From NCBI RefSeq assembly GCF_047607065.1, contig NZ_JASGDU010000054.1, forward strand, positions 135 to 64,134: a stretch of 64,000 bases of DNA. The letters run 5' to 3'. This DNA is from Aeromicrobium sp. (GTDB lineage Bacteria; Actinomycetota; Actinomycetes; Propionibacteriales; Nocardioidaceae). Every line of letters starts with the position of its first letter. The first letter of the stretch is position 1. The notes under the pieces are model-generated. The model ran no database searches. It saw only the letters and a list, made by a program, of their open reading frames with translations, and was not told the origin of the DNA. This document shows, one piece after another, positions 18,280 to 22,094 of the stretch. A program made the position numbers and the translations under genes.

Positions 18280-19832
18280 ACCTTCCCGCCCCGTTGCGTC
18301 GGCTGGCGGCGCGCGCCCTGCCCCCGCTCCTGCTTGCGGCCGTCGTGGTCCCGGTCGGTGTCGCCGTGGCGAGGACCACCTTCGAGACCTCCGAGCGGCC
18401 GATCTCCATCGGTGCCCACCAGGCGACGCTGCGCCCGGACTACAGCGGCGACATCGTGCTCGACTTCGGGCCGCTGCTGCCCCAGGTGAAGATGGACTTG
18501 GACGATCCGCGCTTCGGTATCGGCGCGACCATCCAGTTGGGCGACGCCGAGGTCACCTCGCTCGACGAGCTGATTTCCCGCGACGCGGTAATCGCCTCGC
18601 AGCCCGACGGCGAGGTCGCGGCGGTGGAGGCGGCGCTGCGCGATATGTGGATCGCGTCGGCCTGGCGCGGCGCGGGCGTGGCCGTGGCGCTCGCCGTGGT
18701 GCTGAGTGTGGCGTGGATCGCCGTCGGCCGCGAGCGGCGCGCCGCCCTGGTGGAGGGTCGCAAGCCCCTTCGGATCACGGCGGCGGTCGTCGCCCTCGCC
18801 GTGGCCGGCGGGGGCGTCGTCGCGGCCGTGCGCTCGGACCCGTCGCGCGACCCCGATCCGGTCTCGTGGGTCACCCTCGCGGAGGCCTTCCCGGACCTGC
18901 CGCTGCCCGACGACTCGCGACTCGGCGCACTGCAGCTGTCCGACGGTGCCGCGCTGCGCAGCGGGGAGTCGCTGATCGAGGGCGCCCTCAACACCTACAC
19001 CGCCTCGAATGCCTTCTTCGACCAGCTTGCCACGACCGCCGAGGACGTCAAGGTGCGGCGTCCGGGCGAGGGCCAGACCGTCGCCCTGGTCGTCACCGAC
19101 CGGCACGACAACGTCGCGATGGACCCGGTCGCCCGGCAGATCGCCGAGAACGCTGATGCCACGATGCTGCTCGACCTCGGTGACGACACCTCCAACGGTG
19201 CCGCGTGGGAGGAGTTCAGCATCAACTCCCTCGCGCGCGAGTTCACCGGCTTCGACATCGTCGCGGTCGCGGGCAACCACGACCAGGGCGCGCACATTGC
19301 CGACTACATGGCCGACAGCGGCTTCACCCTGCTCAAGGGCGAGCCGGTGACCGTCGACGGCATCCGGTTCATCGGTGACAGCGATCCGCGTTCCTCCGGT
19401 CTGACGAAGGGCTACACCGGCAACGAGGACGACAACATCGCCGCGATCAGCGAACAGGATCAGGAACTGACGGAGACCGCCTGCGACGACGGTGAAGTGG
19501 CGGTGGCGCTCGTTCACAGCATCGCGTCGGCCAAGCAGTTGGCCGAGTCCGGCTGCGTCGACCTGATCCTGTCGGGGCACCTGCACCGCCAGGTCGGCCC
19601 TGACGTGGTCCGCAGCGATGATGACGAGCCGACGGTGACGCTGGCGACCGGCAGTACCGGCGGCGCGGTGTATGCGTTCGCGCTGGGCACCGGGCTGCGG
19701 CGCGAGGCGCAGATGACGCTCGTGACCTTCGCCGACGGTCGTCCGGTGGGCCTGCAGCTGGTGGACATCGACACCGGGGGGCATATCGCCGCGCAGCCGT
19801 ACGTCACCCTCGACGACCTCATCGGCGACTGA
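18276..19832 (+). CDS. membrane-associated calcineurin-like metallophosphoesterase
   Basis: Track ORF 17667..19832 is over-extended. The ATG at 18276 overlaps the helD stop (ATGA) and gives MNLPAPLRRLAARALPPLLLAAVVV. Motifs: VTDRHDN, LGDDTSNG, VAGNHD, SGHLH. Confidence 0.75.
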   Translation: MNLPAPLRRLAARALPPLLLAAVVVPVGVAVARTTFETSERPISIGAHQATLRPDYSGDIVLDFGPLLPQVKMDLDDPRFGIGATIQLGDAEVTSLDELISRDAVIASQPDGEVAAVEAALRDMWIASAWRGAGVAVALAVVLSVAWIAVGRERRAALVEGRKPLRITAAVVALAVAGGGVVAAVRSDPSRDPDPVSWVTLAEAFPDLPLPDDSRLGALQLSDGAALRSGESLIEGALNTYTASNAFFDQLATTAEDVKVRRPGEGQTVALVVTDRHDNVAMDPVARQIAENADATMLLDLGDDTSNGAAWEEFSINSLAREFTGFDIVAVAGNHDQGAHIADYMADSGFTLLKGEPVTVDGIRFIGDSDPRSSGLTKGYTGNEDDNIAAISEQDQELTETACDDGEVAVALVHSIASAKQLAESGCVDLILSGHLHRQVGPDVVRSDDDEPTVTLATGSTGGAVYAFALGTGLRREAQMTLVTFADGRPVGLQLVDIDTGGHIAAQPYVTLDDLIGD

Positions 19833-19850
19833 GCGCCGGGCGGGGGCAAC

Positions 19851-20045
19851 CGGGTCCCTCAGGTGCGAGCGAGGAACGAAGGGACGTGGGCGGGTCATTT
19901 CGAGGCTCGGCCGCGAACGGCCTCGCACCTCAACGACCGGCTCCGTACGTCGGTCCCTGAGGTGCGAGCGAGGAACGAGCGAGCCTCGAAGGGACCTACC
20001 TCGCACCTCAACGACCGGGAGCCGCCGGGTCCCCGAGGTGCGGGC
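19851..20045. repeat. palindromic repeat family, array of about 3 full + 2 half units (cluster C)
   Basis: cgggtccctcaggtgcgag..gaagggac; gggtcatttcgaggctcggccgcgaacggcctcgcacctcaacgaccgg; cggtccctgaggtgcgagcgaggaacgagcgagcctcgaagggacc; ctcgcacctcaacgaccgg; ccgggtccccgaggtgcggg. Confidence 0.85.
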
Positions 20046-20075
20046 GGGGCGGACCGGCGCGCTAGGCTGCGTGTC

Positions 20076-20108
20076 ATGTCCGAGCGTCGCTGGTGGTCCC
20101 TCCCGTAG
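20076..20108 (+). CDS. trpL: trp leader peptide MSERRWWSLP (tandem Trp codons)
   Basis: ATG TCC GAG CGT CGC TGG TGG TCC CTC CCG TAG. It lies about 90 nt upstream of the anthranilate synthase start, and a U-tailed terminator follows directly. Confidence 0.6.
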   Translation: MSERRWWSLP

Positions 20109-20128
20109 AGGAGGACTGCCGTCGCACG

Positions 20129-20163
20129 CGCCCAGACCCCTCGCACCGGGGCTGGGCGTTTTT
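20129..20163 (+). terminator. attenuator terminator upstream of trpE(G)
   Basis: CGCCCAG(A)CCCC (20129-20140) pairs with GGGGCTGGGCG (20148-20158): 11 bp with one bulge. TTTTT follows (20159-20163). Confidence 0.7.
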
Positions 20164-20198
20164 CGCGTCGGGACCCGGGCGAACCCGTGAGGAAGCAT

Positions 20199-22094
20199 AT
20201 GAATCTGCTCGACACCGTTGTCCTGAAGGACGTGCTCGCCCAGCCGGCCTTCGCCCTGATCCGTTCGCGCGAGGCCGACACGGTCACGCTCATCGGCGGC
20301 CCGCGCATCGACGTGGCCTCCCTCGACGACATCCCGGTGGAGACGGCACCCACCGGCCGACCCGAATGGGACCACCTCGTCTTGATCCCGTTCGCGCAGG
20401 TCCGTGAGCGCGGCTACGAGGCGCACCAGGACGGCACCCCGCTCAGCGTCATCCGTGCCGAGGTGTGTGCCGAGGTGCCGCTGGCCGATCTCCTCGCGGA
20501 CCTCCCCGATGTGCCGGTGACCTTCGCCGACTCCGGCGGCTTCGCCATCGGTGACGACGAGTACGCCGGCGTGGTGCGCCGGATCATCGACGACGAGATC
20601 GGTCGCGGCGAGGGCGCCAACGTCGTCATCGGCCGCCGCTACACCGCCGAGCTGGAGGGGTGGGGCCACGACCAGGCGCTCACCGTCCTGCGCCGGCTGC
20701 TGGAGCGCGAGCGCGGCGCGTTCTGGACCTTCTGCATCTTCACCGGCGACCGGCATCTCATCGGCGCGAGTCCGGAGCGGCATGTCAGCGTCGAGCACGG
20801 CGAGGTCCGCATGAACCCGATCAGCGGCACCTTCCGCCTGCGAGGCCTGGAGACGCAAGGCGAGCGCACGGAGGCGCTGCTGGACTTCCTGCGCGACGAG
20901 AAGGAGATCTACGAGCTCTTCATGGTCGTCGACGAGGAGCTGAAACAGATGTGCCGCATCTGCCACGAGGGCGGCCTCGTGCTCGGCCCCTACCTCAAGG
21001 CGATGAGCCACCTCGTCCACACCGAATACCTGCTGTCGGGCCGCACCGACCTAGACGTGCGTGAAGTGCTGCGCGAGTCGATGTTCGCCGCGACGGTCAC
21101 CGGCAGCCCGGTGGAGAACGCCTGCCGGCTCATCGCGCGCTACGAGGACGAAGGGCGCGGCTACTACGCCTCGGTGGCGGCGCTCATCGGGCGTGACGCC
21201 GACGGGGGCGTGCGCGCCGACGCGCCGATCCTCATCCGCACGGCCGATGTCGATGCCTTCGGGCGGCTCTCGGTCACCGCAGGCGCGACGCTCGTGCGCG
21301 ATTCGGACCCGGTCAGCGAGACCGCCGAGACGTGGGCCAAGGCGAGCGGCATCCTCAGCGCCTTCGGCCTAGTCGACGCCGCACCGCCGGCGACCGACGG
21401 GTTCGCGGCGTTCACGCGGGCCGACGACGTGCTGGTGGCGCTCGGCGCGCGCAATCAGCGGCTGAGCCAGTTCTGGCTGACCGACCAGTCCGGTGCCGCG
21501 CCGGAGGCCTCGCTGACCGGCAAGCGGGTGGTGATCCTCGACGGCGAGGACGACTTCGTCAACATGCTCTCGCACGTGTTCGGCGTCCTCGGCATGACGA
21601 CCGACATCGTCCGCCACGATGCTTCCGACCTGTCTGCCGAGGGCGCGCTCGACGGTTACGACCTCATTGTGGTCGGCCCTGGTCCCGGTGACCCGCGCGA
21701 CACCGGCGACCCGAAGATCGCCACGATCCACGGCGTTGTCGACCGGCTGCTCGCCGCCGAACGCCCGTTCTTGGCGATCTGCCTCGGCCACCAGGTGCTC
21801 TCGCACCGTATCGGCCTCGACCTGGTGTTCAAGGACATCGTTTTCCAAGGCACGCAGAGCCGTCTGTCAGTGCTGGGCCGGACTGAGACGGTCGGCTTCT
21901 ACAACACCTTCGTCGCCCGTGTGCCCGAGGCGGGGCTGCCTGCGGGCGTGAGTGTCGAGGCCGACGAGGAGACCGGCGACATCCACCTTGTCGCCGGCCC
22001 CCACTACCGCGGCGTGCAGTTCCACCCCGAGTCGGTGCTGACCCAGAACGGCTTCGCCATTCTCCGCGATCTCACCCTCGACCTCCTGGGCTGA
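20199..22094 (+). CDS. trpE: anthranilate synthase, fused component I / glutamine amidotransferase (TrpE-TrpG; PhzE-like architecture)
   Basis: The N-terminal chorismate-binding domain has GASPERH, GTFR, ELKQM and TGSPVENA. The C-terminal GATase has FLAICLGHQVL and GVQFHPES. The ATG at 20199 has GAGGA 5 nt upstream; the track starts at the GTG at 20187. Confidence 0.85.
   Translation: MNLLDTVVLKDVLAQPAFALIRSREADTVTLIGGPRIDVASLDDIPVETAPTGRPEWDHLVLIPFAQVRERGYEAHQDGTPLSVIRAEVCAEVPLADLLADLPDVPVTFADSGGFAIGDDEYAGVVRRIIDDEIGRGEGANVVIGRRYTAELEGWGHDQALTVLRRLLERERGAFWTFCIFTGDRHLIGASPERHVSVEHGEVRMNPISGTFRLRGLETQGERTEALLDFLRDEKEIYELFMVVDEELKQMCRICHEGGLVLGPYLKAMSHLVHTEYLLSGRTDLDVREVLRESMFAATVTGSPVENACRLIARYEDEGRGYYASVAALIGRDADGGVRADAPILIRTADVDAFGRLSVTAGATLVRDSDPVSETAETWAKASGILSAFGLVDAAPPATDGFAAFTRADDVLVALGARNQRLSQFWLTDQSGAAPEASLTGKRVVILDGEDDFVNMLSHVFGVLGMTTDIVRHDASDLSAEGALDGYDLIVVGPGPGDPRDTGDPKIATIHGVVDRLLAAERPFLAICLGHQVLSHRIGLDLVFKDIVFQGTQSRLSVLGRTETVGFYNTFVARVPEAGLPAGVSVEADEETGDIHLVAGPHYRGVQFHPESVLTQNGFAILRDLTLDLLG

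What the first reader, a model, noticed from the sequence alone, without database searches (positions are those of the whole stretch)
20076..20198. Ribosome-mediated Trp attenuator: 10-codon leader with tandem Trp codons plus mutually exclusive hairpins
A mini-ORF ATG-TCC-GAG-CGT-CGC-TGG-TGG-TCC-CTC-CCG-TAG (MSERRWWSLP, 20076-20108) precedes the fused anthranilate synthase. I found four segments by hand:
- Segment 1: GTCCCTCC, 20096-20103, beginning in the second Trp codon.
- Segment 2: GAGGAGGACTG, 20108-20118.
- Segment 3: CAGACCCCTC, within 20129-20142.
- Segment 4: GGGGCTGGGCG, 20148-20158, followed by TTTTT.

The pairings run as follows. 1:2 gives 7 bp with one bulge. 2:3 gives about 9 bp with a bulge and a mismatch. 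3:4 gives 11 bp, and this is the only clearly U-tailed terminator I saw in the window. That is the classical pause / antiterminator / terminator logic.

It argues that this PhzE-like fused enzyme is the tryptophan-pathway anthranilate synthase and is regulated by charged tRNA-Trp. As I recall, a Trp-attenuated fused trpEG has been described in Streptomyces. The leader sits immediately after repeat cluster C.
Basis: partly seen in the sequence, partly recalled or inferred. Interest (0 to 1): 0.6.

Follow-up and report, generated by a model that had tools for sequence, protein, structure and literature searches.

The report
Tryptophan attenuator before fused anthranilate synthase
A ten-codon mini-gene with two tryptophan codons and three competing RNA hairpins sits in front of the only anthranilate synthase gene of this Aeromicrobium genome; it is a genuine, conserved example of the textbook tryptophan attenuator, so it is well supported but not a new kind of mechanism.

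Summary
The leader ORF MSERRWWSLP* lies at 20076-20108. The window belongs to an Aeromicrobium genome (Nocardioidaceae).

The same layout occurs upstream of the orthologous gene in 41 of 80 related loci, and in 4 more found later:
- a TAnnnT -10 box 6-7 nt before the start codon, which implies a leaderless transcript;
- WW followed by 3 codons and a stop;
- three alternative helices.

All three helices stay paired in 91-96% of alignment cells, against 23-71% in register-shifted controls, and they show compensatory changes.

The downstream 631-aa protein has PhzE-type architecture. It is the only candidate anthranilate synthase, because the other two chorismate enzymes of the genome are PabB and MenF. 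Canonical TrpE is absent from 61 of 61 sampled Nocardioidaceae genomes.

Streptomyces homologues of the same fused gene carry the known WWW trpL attenuator, which was tested experimentally in S. venezuelae.

Verdict: a real ribosome-mediated Trp attenuator and a new member of a known kind. It arose once at the base of the Aeromicrobium clade and was lost several times. No transcript data could be obtained.

The parts
20063..20068 (+). Predicted -10 promoter box TAGGCT, 7 nt before the leader ATG (implies a leaderless transcript)
   Evidence: A TAnnnT box lies 6 nt (34 loci) or 7 nt (8 loci) before the leader start codon in all 42 attenuator loci. The box is TACGCT in 15 of them, so an AGG Shine-Dalgarno reading is not conserved. 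The TSS itself is inferred, not measured.
20076..20108 (+). Leader ORF trpL-like, MSERRWWSLP*
   Evidence: WW-containing leaders of 10-23 aa stay in frame with the promoter-proximal start codon in 42 loci.
20091..20096 (+). Tandem Trp codons TGG TGG (regulatory codons)
   Evidence: Invariant in alignment A1. They are followed by exactly 3 codons and a stop in 39 of 42 loci, and by 4 codons in the other 3.
20092..20103 (+). Segment 1
   Evidence: Pairs with segment 2 in the MFE at -15.1 kcal/mol. The helix is paired in 91% of cells, with UA, AU and GU exchange at one pair.
20108..20120 (+). Segment 2; it starts at the last base of the stop codon and pairs with either segment 1 or segment 3
20128..20142 (+). 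Segment 3; it is the 5' arm of the terminator and also the partner of segment 2 in the antiterminator
   Evidence: The 2:3 helix is paired in 92% of cells against 31-50% when slid. It is the MFE of the masked RNA in 39 of 42 loci.
20148..20159 (+). Segment 4, the 3' arm of the terminator
   Evidence: The 3:4 helix is paired in 96% of cells, with 4 pairs changed on both sides. Energy -24.1 kcal/mol, z = -3.8.
20159..20163 (+). T-run TTTTT (terminator tail)
   Evidence: Orthologues have weaker tails, with a mean of 4.6 T in the first 10 nt.
20189..20195 (+). Shine-Dalgarno GAGGAAG of the structural gene
   Evidence: Read from the sequence. GAGGAA or AAGGA is conserved before the ATG in orthologues.
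20199..22094 (+). trpEG: fused anthranilate synthase with PhzE-type architecture, 631 aa, monocistronic
   Evidence: Pfam Chorismate_bind + GATase. Full-length match to PhzE 3R74 at E 2e-146. It is the only anthranilate synthase candidate in the genome. The neighbouring genes are unrelated.

Best explanation
This is a classical ribosome-mediated transcription attenuator that senses charged tRNA-Trp. It controls the monocistronic trpEG gene, which encodes the only anthranilate synthase of this Aeromicrobium genome.

Proposed mechanism:
1. Transcription starts at or next to the A of the leader ATG, so the leader is leaderless and a 70S ribosome can load as soon as the 5' end emerges.
2. When Trp-tRNA is scarce, the ribosome stalls with a Trp codon (20091-20096) in the A site. 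Its footprint covers segment 1 (20092-20103). Segment 2 is then free to pair with segment 3 as soon as segment 3 is made. The 3:4 terminator cannot form, and RNA polymerase reads into trpEG.
3. When Trp-tRNA is plentiful, the ribosome runs to the TAG at 20106-20108 and covers segment 2. If no ribosome is present, 1:2 forms instead. Either way segment 3 pairs with segment 4, and transcription stops at the U-run near 20163, giving a leader RNA of about 88 nt.

What is shown: the sequence elements, their geometry, their conservation and covariation, and the metabolic role of the gene from genome content.

What is inferred: the transcription start, translation of the leader, and Trp-dependent read-through.
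For: - The elements are present exactly as described.
- The layout is conserved in 41 of 80 orthologous loci and in 4 further loci (L119, L120, L150, L151). The upstream neighbours differ between loci.
- A TAnnnT box lies 6-7 nt before the leader start in 42 of 42 loci. WW + 3 codons + stop occurs in 39 of 42. By my own knowledge this is the same spacing as E. coli trpL (...GWWRTS*).
- Helices on alignment A1, all with 0 of 500 shuffles reaching the observed share of paired cells:
  - 1:2 is 91% paired against 37-71% when slid, with UA:14, AU:12, GU:7 at one pair.
  - 2:3 is 92% paired against 31-50%.
  - 3:4 is 96% paired against 23-44%, with 4 pairs changed on both sides.
- With segment 1 masked and segment 4 not yet made, the 2:3 helix is the predicted MFE in 39 of 42 loci, mean -10.4 kcal/mol. 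The terminator mean is -22.8, z = -4.6.
- Covariance model R1 recovers four loci that were not used to build it: 75.8, 68.7, 41.0 and 25.4 bits. It gives a single hit in the 64-kb window.
- The genome-wide pattern scan finds no second such leader.
- Gene function from genome content:
  - Only three Chorismate_bind genes exist in the genome.
  - One is a PabB fusion: NF004530 at 398 bits, above its cut-off of 383.
  - One is an isochorismate synthase: TIGR00543 at 247 bits, above its cut-off of 225. It lies beside menC and menE.
  - trpC, trpB and trpA are present, with an empty trpE slot after hisI.
- The fused homologues in Streptomyces-type genomes carry the MFAHS.Q.WWWTAHPAAH leader. That leader is reported as leaderless and followed by a terminator in S. 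lividans (PMC8079986). Attenuation of the S. venezuelae gene has experimental support (Lin et al. 1998, as cited in PMC4833913, and PMC1262725).
Against: - No transcript, TSS or termination data exist for this organism.
- In the window alone the 2:3 helix is no more stable than shuffled sequence (z = -0.9). It is also much weaker than 3:4, so it must win kinetically.
- The U-tails of most orthologues are interrupted, for example GTTCGTCGTCC. The efficiency of intrinsic termination there is therefore uncertain.
- About 20 loci inside the same clade have lost the element and seem to do without it. It is therefore dispensable.
- There is no match to any Rfam leader family.
Confidence: 0.85

Rival explanations
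1. The leader is translated and senses Trp, but premature termination is wholly or partly factor-dependent (Rho or NusG-assisted) rather than purely intrinsic. On this reading the 3:4 hairpin serves mainly as a pause or entry signal.
For: Most orthologues lack a clean U-run after the hairpin, with a mean of 4.6 T in 10 nt. Seliverstov et al. note attenuator-like leaders without obvious terminators in other Actinobacteria (PMC1262725).
Against: The window itself has GC-rich 12-bp stem followed by UUUUU. The hairpin is the most conserved and most strongly covarying part of the element. There is no C-rich unstructured stretch between the leader stop and the hairpin.
Confidence: 0.08
2. The mini-ORF is not translated. 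The structure is a constitutive 5'-UTR element or a leftover terminator, and the WW codons are a by-product of the GGUGG sequence needed for base pairing.
For: UGGUGG is itself part of segment 1 in the MFE hairpin, so it is constrained at the RNA level as well. There is no direct evidence of translation.
Against: The ORF stays open and in frame from a start codon fixed 6-7 nt after the -10 box, although leader length ranges from 10 to 23 codons. The stop codon always falls 3-4 codons after WW, in the loop before segment 2. Segment 1 varies between loci (CCACC, CCUCC, CCGCC and CCUUCC) while UGGUGG never does. Independent Trp leaders precede the same gene in Streptomyces-type genomes.
Confidence: 0.04
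3. Besides acting in cis, the terminated leader RNA of about 88 nt, or its 10-aa peptide, has a function in trans. The model is rnTrpL and peTrpL, which derive from the trpE(G) attenuator of Sinorhizobium meliloti.
For: There is a precedent in another bacterium whose attenuated gene is also a fused trpE(G) (PMC6614838 and PMC7968998, listed). In this genome trpC, trpB and trpA lie on another contig without a leader of their own that I could find.
Against: No target complementarity was searched for or found. The peptide sequence outside WW is poorly conserved. The element has been lost repeatedly without an obvious replacement.
Confidence: 0.05

Closest known systems
Streptomyces trpL-trpEG attenuator (S. 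venezuelae, Lin, Paradkar and Vining 1998; trpL1 of S. lividans TK24, PMC8079986)
   Same: The regulated gene family is the same: a PhzE-type fused anthranilate synthase, 50-53% identical to P0001. Both genes are monocistronic. In both, a leaderless short ORF with tandem Trp codons is followed by a GC-rich terminator.
   Different: The Streptomyces leader is 18 aa with WWW and 7 further codons (MFAHS.Q.WWWTAHPAAH). The leader here is 10-12 aa with WW and 3 further codons. The helix sequences differ. Model R1 scores the Streptomyces leaders at only 14-16 bits, E 0.3-0.9, so common descent of the RNA element is not shown. The element is absent from the intervening Nocardioides-type lineages. In addition, to my knowledge Streptomyces keeps other anthranilate synthase genes, whereas here trpEG is the only one.
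E. coli trp operon attenuator (trpL; Rfam RF00513 Trp_leader)
   Same: The logic is the same: 1:2 pause helix, 2:3 antiterminator, 3:4 terminator. Both have two adjacent Trp codons followed by three codons and a stop. The relative helix stabilities are comparable.
   Different: There is no sequence or covariance-model similarity (no Rfam hit even at E up to 10). The leader here is leaderless rather than Shine-Dalgarno-led. It controls a single gene rather than a five-gene operon.
Sinorhizobium meliloti trpL-trpE(G) attenuator
   Same: A ribosome-mediated Trp attenuator that controls only a fused trpE(G), while the other trp genes lie elsewhere (PMC6614838).
   Different: That fused enzyme is of the TrpE-clade3 type. 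P0001 scores only 155-172 bits against models whose cut-offs are 645-739. A trans-acting role is demonstrated there and is untested here.
PhzE, the 2-amino-2-desoxyisochorismate synthase of phenazine biosynthesis (PDB 3R74)
   Same: Domain architecture and full-length sequence similarity (E 2e-146).
   Different: PhzE-type genes of secondary metabolism sit directly after an isochorismatase (phzD-like) gene and have no leader. This gene stands alone, is Trp-attenuated and is the only possible source of anthranilate. Sequence alone cannot separate the two activities (PMC5958127).

Membership tests
Classical ribosome-mediated Trp transcription attenuator (mechanistic class) | Short leader ORF with tandem Trp codons upstream of a Trp-biosynthesis gene | tested here: met
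   MSERRWWSLP* at 20076-20108. WW is invariant in 42 loci.
Classical ribosome-mediated Trp transcription attenuator (mechanistic class) | Intrinsic terminator (GC-rich hairpin plus U-run) between the leader and the structural gene | tested here: met
   Energy -24.1 kcal/mol, z = -3.8, followed by UUUUU. Paired in 96% of cells, with 4 pairs changed on both sides. The U-run is weaker in orthologues.
Classical ribosome-mediated Trp transcription attenuator (mechanistic class) | Mutually exclusive antiterminator (2:3) that shares a strand with the terminator | tested here: met
   Paired in 92% of cells against 31-50% when slid. It is the MFE of the masked RNA in 39 of 42 loci. It is weak in the window alone (z = -0.9).
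Classical ribosome-mediated Trp transcription attenuator (mechanistic class) | Geometry: a ribosome stalled at the Trp codons masks segment 1, and a ribosome at the stop codon masks segment 2 | tested here: met
   Segment 1 begins inside the Trp codons, and the stop codon abuts segment 2. WW + 3 codons + stop occurs in 39 of 42 loci. The ribosome footprint size is taken from general knowledge.
Classical ribosome-mediated Trp transcription attenuator (mechanistic class) | Read-through increases on Trp or Trp-tRNA limitation | not testable with these tools
No expression data were available.
Rfam RF00513 Trp_leader and other curated leader RNA families | Match to the covariance model at or near the gathering score | tested here: not met
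   No leader family matched window 19000-21000 even at E up to 10.
Streptomyces trpL attenuator (as a homologous RNA or peptide family) | Leader peptide of the MFAHS.Q.WWWTAHPAAH type with the shared helix sequences | tested here: not met
   The peptide length, the Trp count and the tail all differ. R1 scores the Streptomyces leaders at 14-16 bits, E 0.3-0.9.
PhzE-type fused chorismate enzyme (MST domain + linker + GATase1) | Full-length collinear similarity to PhzE, much stronger than to two-subunit TrpE | tested here: met
   3R74 at E 2.4e-146 over residues 25-624. The best TrpE hits are at E 6e-21 to 4e-15. Pfam gives Chorismate_bind + GATase.
Anthranilate synthase (function, as opposed to ADIC synthase) | Produces anthranilate for tryptophan synthesis | tested here: inconclusive
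   Sequence cannot discriminate the two activities (PMC5958127). Context supports anthranilate synthase: it is the sole candidate in the genome, canonical TrpE is absent in 61 of 61 family genomes, no phzD neighbour is present, and the gene has a Trp leader. The S. venezuelae homologue is reported to be an anthranilate synthase (Ashenafi 2008, cited in PMC3111181). No enzyme assay is available.

The most novel reading that the evidence does not exclude
Across the family Nocardioidaceae the canonical TrpE has been replaced by a PhzE-type fused TrpEG as the housekeeping anthranilate synthase. A new leaderless WW attenuator was invented once for that gene, at the base of the Aeromicrobium clade, independently of the Streptomyces WWW attenuator on the homologous gene. 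It was then deleted at least five times, each time leaving a -10 box directly in front of a leaderless trpEG mRNA. This would be a compact natural series for studying the birth and loss of a ribosome-sensing RNA switch.
Probability: 0.6. Interest if true: 0.45.

Novelty: new member of a known kind. Interest (0 to 1): 0.3.

Why it matters
The finding extends classical Trp attenuation to a lineage for which I found no description: Aeromicrobium, in the Propionibacteriales. The 2005 actinobacterial survey reported Trp attenuators only in Corynebacterium and Streptomyces (PMC1262725).

It gives a functional annotation to a gene that automatic models leave ambiguous. P0001 falls below every NCBIfam equivalog cut-off and looks like the phenazine enzyme PhzE. 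The Trp leader, together with the absence of any other TrpE, says it is the primary-metabolism anthranilate synthase. This matters for genome annotation and for phzE-based screens for phenazine producers, which could otherwise count these genes as hits.

The gain-and-loss pattern within one genus is a tidy evolutionary case. The mechanism itself is textbook.

Tried and rejected
- First conservation count was an artefact. I found the leader in only 7 of 24 congeneric loci. Loci from the genome search are not reverse-complemented for minus-strand matches (shown). The oriented loci gave the true figure.
- Rfam search at E up to 10 gave nothing relevant.
- The simple terminator scan missed the site because of the bulged A in the stem.
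- The whole-region MFE z-score is unremarkable. I therefore analysed the helices separately.
- Two papers on the S. venezuelae enzyme, PMC3371231 and PMC4303589, are not held. The Lin 1998 paper is also not in the library. Their content is cited only through papers that cite them.
- I considered reading TAGGCT as a Shine-Dalgarno sequence (AGG). I rejected this because 15 of 42 loci have TACGCT instead.
- I considered TRAP or T-box control. There is no T-box hit in Rfam. I did not test for TRAP-type GAG/UAG repeats in the leader.
- I considered that the C44 or C14 chorismate enzymes could be TrpE. I rejected this on NCBIfam scores and gene context.

Full report
**1. What is in the sequence**

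One search confirms the mini-ORF ATG-TCC-GAG-CGT-CGC-TGG-TGG-TCC-CTC-CCG-TAG at 20076-20108. The structural gene starts at ATG 20199, behind GAGGAAG, and runs to 22094. It encodes P0001, 631 aa.

I folded the pieces separately:
- The terminator pairs 20128-20140 with 20148-20159. It has 12 bp with A20136 bulged and is followed by UUUU(U). Its energy is -24.1 kcal/mol, z = -3.8, and no shuffle out of 500 folds as well.
- The 1:2 hairpin pairs 20092-20103 with 20110-20120. It has 11 bp, includes both Trp codons, and puts the stop codon in its loop. Its energy is -15.1, z = -2.7.
Taken alone, this helix is not better than shuffled sequence (z = -0.9).

The 141-nt region as a whole is also unremarkable (z = -1.1). 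The generic terminator scan missed the hairpin because of its bulge. No Rfam family matches the region.

**2. Where the window comes from and whether the element is conserved**

The record titles of related loci place the window in Aeromicrobium, family Nocardioidaceae. The assembly is 2.18 Mb, in 63 contigs, and is rated 96% complete.

In the 80 best orthologous loci, all oriented the same way, 41 carry a WW-containing ORF of 10-23 codons 77-130 nt upstream of the gene. Four further loci were found later: L119, L120, L150 and L151.

My first count of 7 of 24 was wrong. Loci from the genome search are not reverse-complemented for minus-strand matches.

In the 41 loci plus the window itself (42 sequences):
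- A TAnnnT box (TAGGCT in 20, TACGCT in 15) ends 6 nt (34 loci) or 7 nt (8 loci) before the leader start codon.
- WW is followed by 3 codons and a stop in 39 loci, and by 4 codons in 3.

The promoter-to-start spacing implies a leaderless leader transcript. This matches what is reported for trpL1 of S. lividans (PMC8079986). Here it remains an inference.

**3. Structure conservation**

I used a 34-sequence alignment, A1.

| Helix | Cells paired | Paired when 3' partner is slid | Compensatory changes |
|---|---|---|---|
| 1:2 | 91% | 37-71% | UA:14, AU:12, GU:7 at one pair |
| 2:3 | 92% | 31-50% | UG:18, AU:3, UA:1 at the pair that follows the helix 1:2 exchange |
| 3:4 | 96% | 23-44% | four pairs changed on both sides |

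For the 2:3 helix, the GGAGG class shifts register by one bulged A.

Per-sequence folding predicts the 2:3 helix as the MFE of the ribosome-masked RNA in 39 of 42 loci, with a mean of -10.4 kcal/mol. Terminators average -22.8 kcal/mol, z = -4.6.

A covariance model built from A1 (R1) recovered four loci that were not used to build it. Their scores were 75.8, 68.7, 41.0 and 25.4 bits. The model hit the 64-kb window only once, and it found nothing upstream of trpEG in the loci I had scored as lacking the element.

A genome-wide scan for the promoter-leader-WW pattern found only one other match, which has no structure downstream of it.

**4. What the regulated gene is**

P0001 has Chorismate_bind and GATase domains. 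It is below the cut-off of every NCBIfam equivalog model. It aligns end to end with PhzE (3R74, E 2e-146), far better than with any TrpE. Sequence cannot tell anthranilate synthase from ADIC synthase in this group (PMC5958127), so genome context has to decide.

- The genome has only three chorismate-binding genes.
- One is a PabB-PabC-PabA fusion, and one is an isochorismate synthase beside menC and menE.
- trpC, trpB, trpA and lgt lie on contig C57. Upstream, hisI abuts the trp-associated membrane-protein gene, in the position where actinobacteria normally have trpE. That normal gene order is from my own knowledge.
- The canonical actinobacterial TrpE model NF010086 is above its cut-off in 15 of 16 other Propionibacteriales genomes. 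It is above cut-off in 0 of 25 Aeromicrobium genomes. It has no match at all at E <= 1e-90 in 61 Nocardioidaceae genomes from 60 genera.
- The fused gene is present in 55 of those 61 genomes.
- The neighbours in the window are a metallophosphoesterase, an HtrA-like protease and a sensor kinase. There is no phzD-like gene.

**5. Comparison with what is known**

In Streptomyces-type genomes, homologues 50-53% identical to P0001 fall into two groups:
- Copies that directly follow an isochorismatase-like gene. These have no leader and belong to secondary metabolism.
- Stand-alone copies preceded by MFAHS.Q.WWWTAHPAAH*. This is the trpL known from S. lividans, S. coelicolor and S. venezuelae.

Attenuation of the S. 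venezuelae trpEG has experimental support (Lin et al. 1998, as cited in PMC4833913 and PMC1262725). Its product is reported to be an anthranilate synthase (Ashenafi 2008, cited in PMC3111181).

The Aeromicrobium element works like these attenuators and like E. coli trpL. It is not demonstrably homologous to either. The peptide differs, the helices differ, and R1 scores the Streptomyces leaders at only 14-16 bits.

The 2005 survey of Actinobacteria found Trp attenuators only in Corynebacterium and Streptomyces. I found nothing on Aeromicrobium or the Nocardioidaceae in the held library.

**6. Evolution**

I built a TrpEG tree of 108 rows.
- All 44 attenuator-bearing loci lie in one clade with 99% SH-aLRT support. 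The clade has 64 rows: Aeromicrobium plus its nearest genera. An attenuator-bearing genus, L151, is at its base.
- None of the 44 rows outside the clade has the element.
- Inside the clade, starred branches force at least five changes of state.
- Loci that lack the element typically read GATAGGATCG..CC.CATG. That is a -10 box directly before the trpEG start codon, which again implies a leaderless mRNA.
- L082 keeps the promoter and a W-less relic ORF, MVGRFSTRSSR*.

The simplest reading is one gain and several deletions. It rests on a gene tree, not a species tree.

**7. Verdict**

The element is a new member of a well-known kind of regulator. The physiological response is untested because no transcript data could be reached.

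Noticed in passing
window 19837-20049: A cluster of direct and inverted repeat units (GGTCCCTSAGGTGCGAGCGAGG and CCTCGCACCTCAACGACCGG) fills the spacer after the upstream gene. It ends about 14 nt before the -10 box, so its last half-unit occupies the -35 position of the leader promoter. Orthologous loci have unrelated sequence there.
   Followed up: partly
genome contig C57:59091-65500 (locus L118 region): The trp region reads hisI, trp-associated membrane protein, DUF2752-like gene, two small plus-strand membrane-protein genes, trpC, trpB, trpA, lgt. The slot normally holding trpE is empty. Canonical TrpE (NF010086) is missing from all 61 sampled Nocardioidaceae genomes but present in 15 of 16 genomes from other families of the order.
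   Followed up: yes
L045, L051, L060, L064, L066, L067, L070, L074, L086, L088, L147 (upstream of the trpEG start): These Aeromicrobium loci lack the attenuator. They share GATAGGATCG(N)5-6 CATG, a -10 box directly before the trpEG ATG, so the structural mRNA itself appears to be leaderless. L082 keeps the leader promoter with a W-less relic ORF, MVGRFSTRSSR*.
   Followed up: partly
L035, L037, L040, L062, L064, L066, L069, L075, L077-L079, L082 (about 20-45 nt upstream of the leader -10 box): Paired TGGTATC / GGTGGTATCA (or GATACCA) motifs lie next to the start of a divergent small gene (GTCATGGCCAT...). This looks like an operator of a neighbouring small regulator or antitoxin-type gene that overlaps the -35 region of the trpL promoter in these species.
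   Followed up: no
L090, L094-L096, L099-L102, L104, L106, L109, L111-L113: In these Nocardioidaceae loci the tblastn match to P0001 spans about 2400-2480 nt instead of about 1860 nt. This suggests an insertion of roughly 180-200 codons, or an extra segment, inside the trpEG orthologue.
   Followed up: no
genome contig C14:~250-2960: A single open frame fuses aminodeoxychorismate synthase component I (PabB), a class-IV aminotransferase-like ADC lyase segment and the glutamine amidotransferase (PabA). The ADC lyase identification comes from reading the sequence, not from a model hit. The same long frame of about 880-1000 aa recurs in the other Aeromicrobium genomes.
   Followed up: partly
G012:C11:23385-24772: One Aeromicrobium genome has an extra TrpE-like gene (367 bits to NF010086, below the cut-off of 693). 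It is followed directly by a GATase gene, possibly a secondary-metabolism anthranilate or ADC synthase pair.
   Followed up: no
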